DNA of 64,000 nt from Carcharhinus amblyrhynchos (lineage: Eukaryota): assembly GCA_965287045.1 (NCBI GenBank), contig OZ336889.1, positions 13,826,001 to 13,890,000 on the forward strand, given 5' to 3'. Shown in pieces: positions 49,001 through 52,000 of this stretch. A program made the position numbers. Positions within the stretch are counted from its first letter, which is position 1. Each line of letters begins with the position of its first letter.

Positions 49001-52000
49001 AATTTTATTTCATTAGCTGCTTTTGATATCTGTATATATACACTAGTTCTGTTTTATCCACTGTACACACATGATTGTGTAGCTAGCCTTGATTTGGGAT
49101 GAGAGGAAAAATAGAAATGGCAAATATATTTATCTTTAATTGCACAATGGGAGTAATTGTACAGAGACAAAGGAATGTGAGACCTGGAACATTTATGTTC
49201 TGGCTTGAGAAAAACTGATGAAAGGAAAGGGTGAGGGTACTTTATTATTATTCATGTGAAAATTGATTGATTCAATACCCAAAAATACTTCAGTGTACAG
49301 GTGTATTTAACAAGCTTACCTGTCAAGTATATGTGATGGTACATACTGGAAGTGTAAGTTAATTATTTTTTTGTAGGGAGTCAAAATACAAATATTTTGT
49401 AACCGTTGAACTTGGCCGTCAAAAAATACTAATAGTTGATTCCAGCCTCCATAATGAACAAATTCTGGAATGAATGACCAGGTTAAACTCCTGAAGTAAA
49501 GAGACTAACTAGGATGGTCAACTTGTATATTGTCGTTGCATCTCTGGGATCTGACCTGATTTCGGTTACATTGGTTTACAAGTTTTACCACTCCACTGAC
49601 CATGAGGATCCTGTATGAAATTATTTTTGGACCTAACCTAATATAAGCTTGCTGTTCACATTATTTGAAATTCAATTGGTTATGTGGGTGGGGGTATCAA
49701 ATGCTCCTCTAAGTCTTGGGTTTGGGGATGCATAAAAAATAGATTCACTCTGCATCCGTTTCTGACCTGGGCAAGCTTCATGCTGACCATGGATGTAAAA
49801 GCTGAAGAACACTCTCATTTCTTAATATACATGTCCTAATCTGAATAAAATTTTACACGGATGAGTCAATGCAATGATTATCTTTTGCATCTTTGGCATT
49901 TTTCATAATACAGGCATGAGTGGGTTTCCAAATTGATGTGCCGGTTTGCACTTTACTGGGTGAATATTTGGTGCAGTTTGAAATTATGAAAGTTGTAAAC
50001 CAGATTTTTCTTACTCATTATTGACCATCCATTATTCATAATGGTTTTGTTTATGTATGGGATGAATACATTTTTTGTTCCAAATTTTTACTTTTGTTTC
50101 CTGTAATTCAGATGTGATTAAATACAGAGGAATTTGTCCAAGAAATGCTAAGCCAGTATCAGGATCAATCTAGAATGAGAGAGAATGGGACAGATTAATT
50201 GGACACTATAACATTGTTTTGATCAGTTATCATTTTTACAAGCCTCATCTTTTTCAATGTTTAGTACAGTGTTCACAAAAGAAAAATGTGTCTCCTCTTT
50301 CCTAATCCATTAGAGCAAGTATTGCTAGGTGTAAACCCGCTATCCAAGAAATAAGTATTCCTGCAGTGAAACATTATAAACTCCTTAATCACAAAATATA
50401 CTAACTTATTAGAACATATTTTGAAATATCCTCTGCCCTCAACACATTATTTTTCTCCCATGCTGAAACAAACATGAGCCCACATTGTATCTGAATGTCT
50501 CATTTCAAATGTTGGAGAAAATTCAGCAGCATTTTATTGCTGTCCAGAGTGTCCTGTGTTAACTTGATGGAAAATTCTCCAGAATTAGGATAATCTTTCC
50601 TTTCAAGTTCAAAGTTTATTTATTAGTGTCACAAGTAGGCTTACATTAACACCACAATGAAGTTGCTGTGAAAATCCCCTAGTCGCCACACTCCGCACCT
50701 CTTCGGGTACACTGGGGGAGAATTTAGCATGGTCAGTATATTTAATCACCTTTCAGACTTGTGGGAGGCAACCGGAGGAAACCCACATAGTCACAAGAAC
50801 ATGCAAACTCCAAAAGCAGTGACCCAAGCTGGAAATTGAACCTGGGTCCCAGGTGCTGTGAGGCAGCAGTGCTAACTACTGTGCCACCTTGCTACCCTTC
50901 ACCATTTATCAAGCAAAAAATTTGGGATTGGGTTTTTGACTAAATGCATACTTTATTTTGAGCTTCTGTTATATCAGTGATGTTCATAATGGAGTGATTG
51001 AACTGGTTGGGAAGAGGAGTCAAACAAGACCACCTGAATCCTACCACTTGGCATCTATAATCTGTGCAATTCTTTCTTCCATCCAGGGAGGTATATTACT
51101 TTACAGTGCAATAAAATGGGTTCAATGATGATGATGTGGGTATGCCGGCGTTGGACTGGCGTAAACACAGTAAAAAGTCTGACAACACCAGGTTTTAGTC
51201 CAACCTATTTATTTGATAATATACTCGCAAGCTTTCGGGTTAGCCCCTTCGTCAGGTGAATGGAGAGTTCTGGCCTCAGACAGAGCATATAAAGCACAGA
51301 CAGAGCATATAAATCACACGTGAGAATACCGTCCACCAGGTACATGGTAAACACTCTTGCAACTCGGCCAACATTGTCTACCTGATACGTTGCAAGAAAG
51401 GATGTCCCGAAGCATGGTACATTGGGGAGACCATGCAGACGCCACGACAACGGATGAATGAACATCGTTCGACAGTCACCAGTCCTGCCTGGTGACTGTC
51501 GAGCGATGTTCATTCATCCGTTGTCGTGGCGTCTGCATGGTCTCCCCAATGTACCATGCTTCGGGACATCCTTTCTTGCAACGTATCAGGTAGACAATGT
51601 TGGCCGAGTTGCAAGAGTGTTTACCATGTACCTGGTGGACGGTATTCTCACGTGTGATTTATATGCTCTGTCTGTGCTTTATATGCTCTGTCTGAGGCCA
51701 GAACTCTCCATTCACCTGACGAAGGGGCTAACCCGAAAGCTTGCGAGTATATTATCAATGATGATGACACAGAGAAGTTTTTAACATTATGGGGATCATA
51801 CTGATAACAAGTTGGATCAAGAATTTTAGGTGGCAGTTATCAAAAATGTTCAGAAATTTCTGCAATAAAACTGGTTCTAATTAATTGAAATATGGAATCT
51901 CTTAAATCAAGAATGATCCTTGGTGGGTGTTTTCTGGTGCTGCCAATTCCATTTATTAAGCAGTACGTTTTCTAACGTAATTTTTTTTAACCAGTTCAAG

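What the first reader, a model, noticed from the sequence alone, without database searches (positions are those of the whole stretch)
51122..51767. Doubly inverted Penelope insertion: 270-bp fold-back with TSD
Seen: left to right, antisense pLTR end (51135-51313, with a stutter duplicating AGCATATAAA), a jump to a sense GIY-YIG fragment, a 6-nt loop (TCCTGC), then a mirror copy of everything back to 51213 with one mismatch noticed (51468/51503), all within a 13-bp TSD. Established: PLE copies often carry inverted 5'-truncated pLTRs. Inference: because the chimeric junction is itself mirrored, the second arm was copied from the first (self-primed DNA-templated fold-back synthesis) or a pre-formed hairpin RNA was mobilised. 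This is a direct footprint of the poorly understood PLE second-strand mechanism.
Basis: partly seen in the sequence, partly recalled or inferred. Interest (0 to 1): 0.8.

Follow-up and report, generated by a model that had tools for sequence, protein, structure and literature searches.

The report
Mirror-image Penelope retroelement insertion in shark
A short, dead fragment of a Penelope-like retrotransposon sits in this shark-like genome as a near-perfect 270-bp mirror repeat between target-site duplications, and its small asymmetries give clues to how these elements build inverted copies.

Summary
Arms 51213-51482 and 51489-51758 match at 269 of 270 positions, with a 6-nt loop, a 13-bp TSD, a mirrored 20-nt stutter and a mirrored chimeric junction. 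The content is a Penelope-like element (PLE). It has a GIY-YIG fragment above Pfam's cut-off, the PLE-specific cysteines, a minimal hammerhead core and shark PLE homologues at 65-89% identity.

Two results change the reading.

1. A second fold-back copy lies at 60562-61423. It has its own 12-bp TSD and its own fold point, so each insertion formed its mirror separately.
2. In the reported copy the 6-nt loop is element coding sequence continuous with the right arm, while the complete 3' terminus is on the left arm. A single left-primed cDNA folding back on itself predicts the opposite loop orientation.

My best reading is that both 3' ends of the staggered break primed synthesis on a template that was already chimeric, and the mirror closed at a 3-nt CAG/CTG overlap. 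This fits in vitro extension of both strands by a lizard PLE (PMC11167929).

Inverted PLE copies and inferred self-priming are already published (PMC3846280). This is a new member of a known kind, of moderate interest. A genome-wide census could not be run.

The parts
51122..51134 (.). Left copy of the 13-bp target-site duplication, TCAATGATGATGA. It looks like an (ATG)n microsatellite.
51135..51212 (-). Outermost 78 nt of the element's 3' end, in sense on the minus strand. It is present only in the left arm. Its first ~35 nt correspond to the stretch missing from one arm of the sister copy (the 'tail').
   Evidence: the antisense DNA strand forms a stem-loop here
51213..51313 (-). Left arm, 3'-UTR/pLTR part, antisense on the + strand. 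It holds the minimal hammerhead core (51230-51255) and the 20-nt stutter (51277-51316).
51314..51482 (+). Left arm, GIY-YIG endonuclease fragment in sense (ITRENTVHQVHGKHSCNSANIVYLIRCKKGCPEAWYIGETMQTPRQRMNEHRSTVT). The chimeric junction with the antisense UTR lies at about 51313|51314.
51483..51488 (-). The 6-nt loop. GCAGGA on the minus strand completes the codons for R-Q-D, so it is element coding sequence continuous with the right arm.
51489..51657 (-). Right arm, mirror copy of the GIY-YIG fragment (sense on the minus strand).
51658..51758 (+). Right arm, 3'-UTR/pLTR in sense, with the mirrored junction and stutter and the hammerhead core at 51716-51741. It stops 78 nt short of the element terminus. 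The last 4 nt (TCAA) are shared with the TSD.
51755..51767 (.). Right copy of the 13-bp TSD.
60550..60561 (.). Sister copy: left 12-bp TSD, CAAATCTTTTAG.
60562..60925 (-). Sister copy, left arm (antisense on the + strand). It lacks the terminal 35-37 nt ('tail') and has a 2-nt deletion near the centre. It is canonical where the right arm carries the 54-nt patch.
60928..61423 (+). Sister copy, right arm (sense). It runs from the ORF C-terminus (...DGLNRDLGFMSHYL*) through the 3' UTR to the complete terminus. It contains a 46-nt stuttered stretch (60941-60986) and a 54-nt patch (61315-61368).
61424..61435 (.). Sister copy: right 12-bp TSD.
61766..61830 (-). Flanking DNA that appears, inverted and 64 of 65 nt identical, as the patch inside the sister copy's right arm (61307-61371).

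Best explanation
**What it is.** A young, non-functional, about 620-bp insertion (51135-51754) of the 3' end of a Penelope-like retrotransposon. Its closest protein relatives carry the Neptune/Nematis-type linker. It lies in a shark-like genome and was integrated by target-primed reverse transcription at a break with 13-nt 3' overhangs.

**Layout.** Both arms are copies of one chimeric template, in which antisense 3' UTR is joined to a sense GIY-YIG fragment.

**Most likely route** (every step is inferred):
1. The chimeric junction and the stutter already existed in the template RNA. A plausible source is a transcript crossing the head-to-head junction of an older PLE insertion, ending in a sense pLTR that carries the reverse-transcription start.
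2. Both 3' ends of the staggered break primed DNA synthesis. The + strand end started at the element's normal start site, which gives the complete terminus on the left. The minus strand end started 78 nt inside the element, at a 4-nt TTGA/UCAA match.
3. The right-primed strand ran 9 nt further into the GIY-YIG fragment than the left-primed one. The mirror closed at a 3-nt CTG/CAG overlap. This happened either because two cDNAs with like ends paired and filled each other in, or because the right-primed strand snapped back on itself and then annealed to the left-primed cDNA.
4. Fill-in and ligation left the 13-bp TSD.
For: **Identity**
- The GIY-YIG fragment scores 23.9 bits against a cut-off of 22.6.
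- Two cysteines lie between GIY and YIG, as PLE endonucleases have. The motif is and the criterion in PMC8557442 passages.
- The protein search gave 17 hits among 19 candidates. Ten are named shark proteins, and identity to the query ranges from 65% to 89% across all 17.
- The closest homologues place the fragment about 50 residues upstream of the ORF end that appears in the sister copy.
- The hammerhead core CTGACGA-A-GGGGCTAACCC-GAAA-GCT occurs 4 times, once in each of the 4 arms, with 0 expected by chance.

**Single integration event**
- The TSD is exact, and the complete terminus abuts it.

**Both ends priming**
- The canonical terminus is on the left arm.
- The loop is canonical sense sequence on the right arm's strand: RQD against RQ(D/E) in 8 of 8 homologues displayed. 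By my own arithmetic, a random hexamer would do this about 1 time in 1000.
- There is a 4-nt overlap at the right junction.
- A lizard PLE protein cleaves and extends both strands in vitro and is predicted to be a dimer (PMC11167929 main text).

**Independent arms in this family**
- The sister copy's arms are 328 of 328 identical in the shared part.
- Its right arm alone has a 46-nt stutter and a 54-nt patch. Its left arm alone has a 2-nt deletion.
- One arm lacks 35-37 terminal nt, which matches the published 30-40-bp 'tail' (PMC8557442; PMC11167929).
Against: - Only two copies were seen, both in one window. No genome-wide census was possible, so the pre-existing chimeric RNA is unproven.
- The centres are almost symmetric, offset by 9 nt here and 2 nt in the sister copy. 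A snap-back explains this for free. Two independent cDNAs need a short RNA with a defined 5' end.
- Recombination between the 270-bp arms could have flipped the loop after insertion. That would remove the key argument.
- The arm-specific changes in the sister copy could be later repair events at an unstable palindrome.
- The in vitro data come from a Poseidon-clade lizard element, not from this family.
- Rfam models do not detect the hammerhead.
Confidence: 0.45

Rival explanations
1. One cDNA is primed at the left nick and copies 179 nt of the 3' end. It stutters and jumps to an antisense template of the GIY-YIG region. It then folds back on itself with a 6-nt loop and copies itself back, until a 4-nt match joins it to the right target end.
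For: - The junction and stutter are mirrored at 269 of 270 positions.
- The complete terminus is at the left, and there is a 4-nt overlap at the right.
- The centre is nearly symmetric.
- Self-priming has been inferred for PLEs from palindromes at inverted junctions (PMC3846280 Discussion).
Against: - The loop on the + strand is the reverse complement of the coding sequence that follows the fragment. A strand that folds on itself keeps its own continuation in the loop.
- The model needs an unexplained antisense template for the GIY-YIG piece.
- In the sister copy, the arm without the complete terminus cannot be a copy of the other arm as it now stands.
Confidence: 0.2
2. A palindromic master copy, belonging to a non-autonomous hairpin family, was transcribed. 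This insertion is a plain, 5'-truncated TPRT copy of that RNA, joined at its 5' end by a 4-nt microhomology.
For: - It explains all asymmetries with one ordinary TPRT event: a complete 3' terminus at the priming side and 5' truncation with microhomology at the other.
- Non-autonomous PLE derivatives are proposed in vertebrates (bioRxiv 10.64898/2026.07.22.740005, passages).
Against: - No second copy with this junction or loop is in the window.
- The only other copy of the family here has a different fold point.
- Reverse transcription would have to pass a 270-bp perfect RNA hairpin.
- The origin of the master still needs one of the other mechanisms.
Confidence: 0.2
3. A simple insertion was rearranged later into a palindrome by replication template switching or break repair.
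For: - Long palindromes are unstable (recalled knowledge).
- The sister copy carries a locally templated 54-nt patch and a stuttered centre, which could be repair scars.
Against: - The exact TSD brackets the whole structure.
- The right arm ends in a 4-nt overlap with the target, as expected for a junction made during integration.
- Two independent copies 9 kb apart share the architecture.
Confidence: 0.07
4. An assembly or library fold-back artefact.
For: PLE tandem and inverted structures are known to trouble assemblies (PMC8557442 passage).
Against: - The palindrome is confined to 540 bp inside a TSD-flanked insertion with unique flanks on both sides.
- Its ends are asymmetric.
- A second copy has the same design with its own TSD.
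- Read-level data were not available to me.
Confidence: 0.03
5. A DNA transposon of the fold-back or MITE type with long terminal inverted repeats.
For: Long inverted repeats lie between direct repeats.
Against: - The left terminal 78 nt have no inverted partner.
- TSD length differs between the copies, 13 against 12.
- The content is a retroelement ORF and UTR.
Confidence: 0.01

Closest known systems
Endonuclease-positive Penelope-like elements with an inverted 5'-truncated copy (head-to-head pLTR arrangement), as described for Drosophila, fish, rotifers and Naiads (PMC8557442, PMC3846280)
   Same: - GIY-YIG endonuclease with internal cysteines.
- Hammerhead-type core in the terminal repeat.
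- TSD of variable length and severe 5' truncation.
- An inverted partner copy.
- A 30-40-bp 'tail' at one end only (seen in the sister copy).
- A palindrome at the inverted junction.
   Different: - Here the unit is only about 620 bp and has no ORF.
- The inner part is a tail-to-tail palindrome of a coding fragment, set inside a head-to-head pair of UTR fragments. The orientation therefore switches twice.
- The right arm stops 78 nt from the terminus, which is not at the tail boundary.
L1 twin-priming inversions (Ostertag and Kazazian 2001; recalled, not read here)
   Same: - A 3' segment is joined to an inverted upstream segment.
- There is a TSD, internal priming by a short match at the second nick, and use of both nicks as primers.
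   Different: - In twin priming the internal priming site abuts the TSD. Here the GIY-YIG fragment ends in a loop and a mirror copy instead.
- No paper in the searched library links twin priming to PLE structure. One search gave 3 papers, none on this topic judging by title and abstract start.
Both-strand cleavage and extension by the Anolis Poseidon PLE protein in vitro (PMC11167929)
   Same: - Both target strands serve as primers.
- Initiation occurs at defined internal sites of the RNA without homology to the target.
- The tail is explained by two start sites.
   Different: - It is a different PLE clade and host.
- The in vitro work did not report mirror products, as far as the main text I read shows. 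Its supplements were not read.
Self-primed (snap-back) cDNA synthesis and end-to-end template jumping by non-LTR reverse transcriptases (R2; recalled, plus search listing only for PMC11204384 and PMC12222951)
   Same: A short loop or direct end-to-end continuation at the turning point, and stuttering near template ends.
   Different: The loop polarity in the reported copy does not fit a snap-back of the strand primed at the canonical start.

Membership tests
Penelope-like element, endonuclease-positive | GIY-YIG endonuclease domain | tested here: met
   PF01541 at 23.9 bits against a cut-off of 22.6, E = 5.1e-5, on the 57-aa fragment. Only the N-terminal half of the domain is present.
Penelope-like element, endonuclease-positive | CCHH motif with two cysteines between GIY and YIG (criterion from PMC8557442) | tested here: met
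   The fragment reads IVYLIRCKKGCPEAWYIGET, with C-x3-C between the two motifs. The histidines lie partly beyond the fragment.
Penelope-like element, endonuclease-positive | PLE-type reverse transcriptase in the same ORF | tested here: inconclusive
   - There is no RT in either window copy. tblastn with 5 homologues hit only the GIY-YIG and C-terminal parts.
- Homologue P0006 carries RVT_1 upstream of the same fragment at 27.1 bits, below the 29.6 cut-off.
- No RT phylogeny was made.
Penelope-like element, endonuclease-positive | Hammerhead ribozyme motif in the terminal repeat (PMC4209133) | tested here: inconclusive
   - The core CUGACGA, an extra A, a G...C helix II, GAAA and the palindromic AGCU are present in all 4 arms, with 0 expected by chance. 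These match the traits quoted.
- Rfam finds no hammerhead at gathering score in the whole window, nor at E up to 10 in 51000-51900.
- The monomer fold is not better than shuffles.
- Cleavage was not tested.
Penelope-like element, endonuclease-positive | Variable-length TSD and 5' truncation | tested here: met
   TSDs are 13 bp and 12 bp. Both copies keep only the last 0.2-0.5 kb of the element.
Penelope-like element, endonuclease-positive | Inverted partner copy, with a 30-40-bp tail at one end only | tested here: met
   - In the sister copy one arm lacks 35-37 terminal nt.
- In the reported copy the inverted partner is present, but the shorter arm lacks 78 nt.
Neptune/Nematis clades of PLEs | CX2-5CxxC linker upstream of GIY-YIG (PMC8557442) | tested here: inconclusive
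   The linker is present in the closest homologues, as QPCHSNLCKTC. It lies upstream of the point where the window fragment begins, so it is absent from the window itself.
L1-type twin-priming inversion | The inverted segment's priming site abuts the TSD | tested here: not met
   The GIY-YIG fragment ends at the loop, not at the TSD.
Snap-back of the cDNA primed at the canonical 3' start | The loop continues the arm that bears the complete terminus | tested here: not met
   - Reported copy: the loop continues the right arm while the terminus is on the left arm.
- Sister copy: the 2-nt spacer CC continues the arm with the terminus, so the feature is met there.
Fold-back or MITE DNA transposon | Inverted repeats reach both termini, and TSD length is fixed | tested here: not met
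   78 nt are unpaired at the left end. TSDs are 13 and 12 bp.

The most novel reading that the evidence does not exclude
In this PLE family the head-to-head inverted architecture arises because both 3' ends of the staggered break prime reverse transcription on the same short RNA. The two cDNAs are then joined at their 3' ends. The doubly inverted copy would be a second-generation product, copied from an RNA that is antisense over the coding part and sense over an inverted pLTR. That RNA would be a transcript across an older head-to-head junction. If so, natural insertions would record both dual priming and the use of partly antisense templates, two ideas so far resting on in vitro data (PMC11167929) and on speculation (PMC3846280).
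Probability: 0.3. Interest if true: 0.6.

Novelty: new member of a known kind. Interest (0 to 1): 0.4.

Why it matters
How PLEs complete integration and why they form tandem and inverted copies is still described as undefined (PMC8557442; PMC11167929). Short, young, TSD-flanked mirror copies such as these two are natural single-event records. Three features can be scored across a genome: which arm holds the true terminus, which arm the loop continues, and which errors are private to one arm. That scoring could separate snap-back from priming on both strands. On its own, one locus with a sister copy adds an example and a testable criterion, but no new principle.

Tried and rejected
- **Rfam.** The whole window at gathering score gave 0 matches. 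The region 51000-51900 at E up to 10 gave only two chance-level hits, snoZ105 and HOTAIR_1. No hammerhead model fired, so I fell back on a motif search.
- **RNA folds.** The sense terminal 78 nt and the hammerhead region fold no better than shuffles, z = -0.68 and +1.57. These folds give no support for a specific stem-loop.
- **Further copies.** I searched the window for more copies, or for the RT of this element. BLASTN and TBLASTN found only the four arms.
- **Neighbouring RT ORF.** The ORF at 62489-63460 is LINE-like, with R2 and L1 as its best solved-structure matches. It is not part of this element.
- **Flanks.** BLAST of the flanks for a paralogous empty site found only an interspersed repeat at about 50608-50898 and nothing at the insertion point.
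- **Twin priming.** As a full explanation it is rejected, because the priming site does not abut the TSD.
- **MITE or fold-back DNA transposon.** Rejected, as set out in the membership test.
- **Inner palindrome scan.** A scan for the inner palindrome of the sister copy printed nothing because of a fault in my loop. The 13-nt inner palindrome was instead checked by the reverse-complement line in the same call.
- **Not attempted.** No search of eukaryotic genomes was made. The copy census therefore stayed unchecked.
- **Supplements.** None were read. Those of PMC11167929 (Figs S1-S2) and PMC8557442 may bear on tail length and on how common head-to-head copies are. bioRxiv supplements are closed.
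Full report
**1. The observation**

- The repeat finder reports arms 51213-51482 and 51489-51758, 270 nt each with 6 nt between them. It also reports the exact 13-nt direct repeat TCAATGATGATGA at 51122-51134 and 51755-51767.
- A base-by-base comparison gives one mismatch, 51468 T against 51503 C. Complementarity stops at once outside the arms.
- The 20-nt unit CAGACAGAGCATATAAA(G/T)CA is doubled in each arm.
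- The junction string AGCATATAAATCACACG occurs twice, once per arm, with none expected by chance.
- As single-stranded DNA the insertion folds at -375.8 kcal/mol, against -82.5 +/- 4.3 for shuffles.
- Two details should be added. The last 4 nt of the right arm (TCAA) are also the first 4 nt of the right TSD. The element terminus overlaps the left TSD by 2 nt.

**2. What the sequence is**

- On the + strand, 51313-51483 translates to ITRENTVHQVHGKHSCNSANIVYLIRCKKGCPEAWYIGETMQTPRQRMNEHRSTVTS. This passes Pfam's GIY-YIG cut-off, 23.9 against 22.6 bits.
- It has the two cysteines between GIY and YIG that set PLE endonucleases apart (criterion from passages of PMC8557442).
- A search of longer proteins gave 17 hits at E <= 0.001 among 19 candidates. 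Ten carry shark names: 7 Mustelus asterias, 2 Scyliorhinus torazame and 1 Chiloscyllium punctatum. Identity across all 17 hits ranges from 65% to 89%.
- The window is therefore most likely shark DNA. Nothing in it looked human.
- In the homologues the fragment follows a CX5CxxC linker and, in P0006, a weak RVT_1 match (27.1 bits, below the cut-off). About 50 residues after the fragment comes the ORF end ...GLNRD.GFMSHY.
- The untranslated part carries the core of a minimal hammerhead, CTGACGA-A-GGGGCTAACCC-GAAA-GCT. It occurs four times in the window, only in the four arms described below, with none expected. It agrees with the traits listed in PMC4209133 (passages).
- Rfam's models did not detect it, so I count this feature as suggestive only.

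**3. A second copy in the same window**

- BLAST of the element against the window found a sister copy at 60562-61423.
- It too is a mirror. Arms 60584-60911 and 60987-61314 are 328 of 328 identical. It lies between exact 12-nt repeats CAAATCTTTTAG.
- Here the complete terminus is on the right, in sense on the + strand. The left arm lacks the outer 35-37 nt.
- The turning point lies in the ORF's last codons: a 13-nt inner palindrome with a 2-nt spacer, CC. Its fold point therefore differs from that of the reported copy.
- The shared UTR is 133 of 135 identical between the two copies.
- The sister copy shows the unstuttered UTR. This proves that the second AGCATATAAA and the jump into the GIY-YIG fragment are peculiar to the reported copy.

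**4. The asymmetries, and what they say**

In the reported copy, two stretches lie outside the mirror and so must come from an outside template.
- The first is the outer 78 nt, present only on the left arm.
- The second is the loop. Read on the minus strand, the right arm's coding sense runs on through the loop as ...STVT-R-Q-D.
- All 8 homologues displayed have RQ(D/E) at that place. I asked for 10, and 2 were not shown because they lack the exact motif word I used to line them up.
- The + strand reads STVTSPAW instead. By my own arithmetic, a random hexamer would complete R-Q-D/E about once in 1000.
- The next 3 nt (CTG) fit both the coding continuation and the start of the mirror, so the turn used a 3-nt CTG/CAG overlap.
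- A strand that folds back on itself carries its own continuation in the loop. The left-primed + strand does not. The strand that does is the minus strand, which starts at the right TSD, 78 nt inside the element.
- That strand cannot supply the outer 78 nt on the left.
- The simplest way out is that both 3' ends of the 13-nt staggered break primed synthesis. The left end started at the normal start site. The right end started at a 4-nt TTGA/UCAA match.

**5. The sister copy argues the same way**

- Its right arm alone has a 46-nt stuttered stretch where the coding sequence should read ATG (60941-60986). It also has a 54-nt patch replacing CCTG (61315-61368).
- Its left arm alone has a 2-nt deletion at the same central site, and it is canonical at the patch site.
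- Neither arm can be a copy of the other as they now stand. Either they are independent copies of one RNA, or the private changes came later.
- The missing 35-37 nt match the published 30-40-bp 'tail' found at one end only (PMC8557442). An in vitro study equates the tail with the distance between two reverse-transcription start sites (PMC11167929 main text).
- That study also reports that the purified lizard PLE protein cleaves and extends both target strands, and that it is predicted to be a dimer.

**6. The chimeric junction**

- Whichever strand came first, antisense UTR followed by sense coding sequence cannot be copied from a normal sense RNA.
- It has the topology of the head-to-head junction of an ordinary PLE insertion, read from the other strand.
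- I therefore favour a template RNA that already held the junction and the stutter. It would be a transcript that is antisense over the coding part and ends in a sense pLTR. This is inference.
- It echoes the suggestion of antisense templates in the Discussion of PMC3846280.
- The alternative is a jump onto another cDNA during the same event.

**7. Weighing the routes**

- For snap-back: both centres are nearly symmetric, which a fold-back gives for free. Two independent cDNAs require a short RNA with a fixed 5' end.
- Against relying on loop polarity: recombination between 270-bp arms would flip a loop.
- A hybrid route fits every feature. The right-primed strand snaps back and then anneals to a short left-primed cDNA.
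- I therefore commit only to the following, at 0.45: integration in one event, priming from both target ends, and closure of the mirror at the CTG/CAG overlap on a template that was already chimeric.
- Later rearrangement gets 0.07, an artefact 0.03 and a DNA transposon 0.01.

**8. Comparison with what is known**

- Inverted 5'-truncated partner copies, tails and complex tandem or inverted insertions are standard descriptions of PLEs (PMC8557442 passages; PMC3846280 passages).
- PMC3846280 already reads palindromes at inverted junctions as signs of self-priming. It also discusses head-to-head against tail-to-tail outcomes.
- The present copy differs in being a very short double inversion, with a tail-to-tail coding palindrome inside a head-to-head UTR pair.
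- A library search for 'Penelope-like' together with 'twin priming' gave 3 papers. None concerns PLE structure, judged from titles and abstract starts. A search on snap-back and second-strand synthesis gave 2 R2 papers, seen as listings only.
- I found no printed statement that PLE mirrors arise by priming on both strands, but I searched only with these terms.

**9. Verdict**

- The feature is real and correctly identified as a PLE insertion.
- Novelty: new member of a known kind. Interest: moderate.
- The useful product is a scoring rule (terminus side, loop side, private errors) that a genome-wide census could apply.

Noticed in passing
window 60550-61435: A second PLE fold-back insertion of the same family. 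It has a 12-bp TSD, 328 of 328 identical arms, its own fold point in the ORF C-terminus, and a 35-37-nt 'tail' on one arm only.
   Followed up: yes
window 61315-61368 and 61766-61830: A 54-nt patch inside the right arm of the second copy is an inverted copy (64 of 65 over the 65-nt match) of flanking DNA 343-407 bp beyond the insertion. There are 3-nt overlaps at both switch points. It looks like a template switch onto the target flank during integration, or a later templated repair. Only these two copies of the stretch exist in the window.
   Followed up: partly
window 60941-60986: A 46-nt run of imperfect re-copies of AGGACGGTCTCAACA lies beside the turning point of the second copy, in one arm only. 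The other arm has a 2-nt deletion at the same site.
   Followed up: partly
window 51135-51169: The outer ~35 nt of the element can form a stem-loop on the antisense DNA strand. They coincide with the stretch absent from one arm of the second copy. The sense RNA fold is not better than shuffles.
   Followed up: partly
window 62489-63460 (+): An open frame with a LINE-type reverse transcriptase: RVT_1 at E = 2.9e-34, with R2 and L1 ORF2p as the best solved-structure matches. It is unrelated to the PLE copies.
   Followed up: partly
window 27571-29748 (-): Two adjacent open frames with RVT_1 matches, one at 52.9 bits and one (20 bits) below the cut-off. This is probably another decayed retroelement.
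   Followed up: no
window 44663-46090 (+): A 475-aa open frame with a strong FAM222A family match (E = 1.9e-76). This is a vertebrate host gene about 5 kb upstream of the insertion.
   Followed up: no
window 50608-50898: An interspersed repeat in the left flank has about ten further partial copies in the window, at 71-88% identity. It ends 236 bp before the insertion site.
   Followed up: no
   Followed up: no
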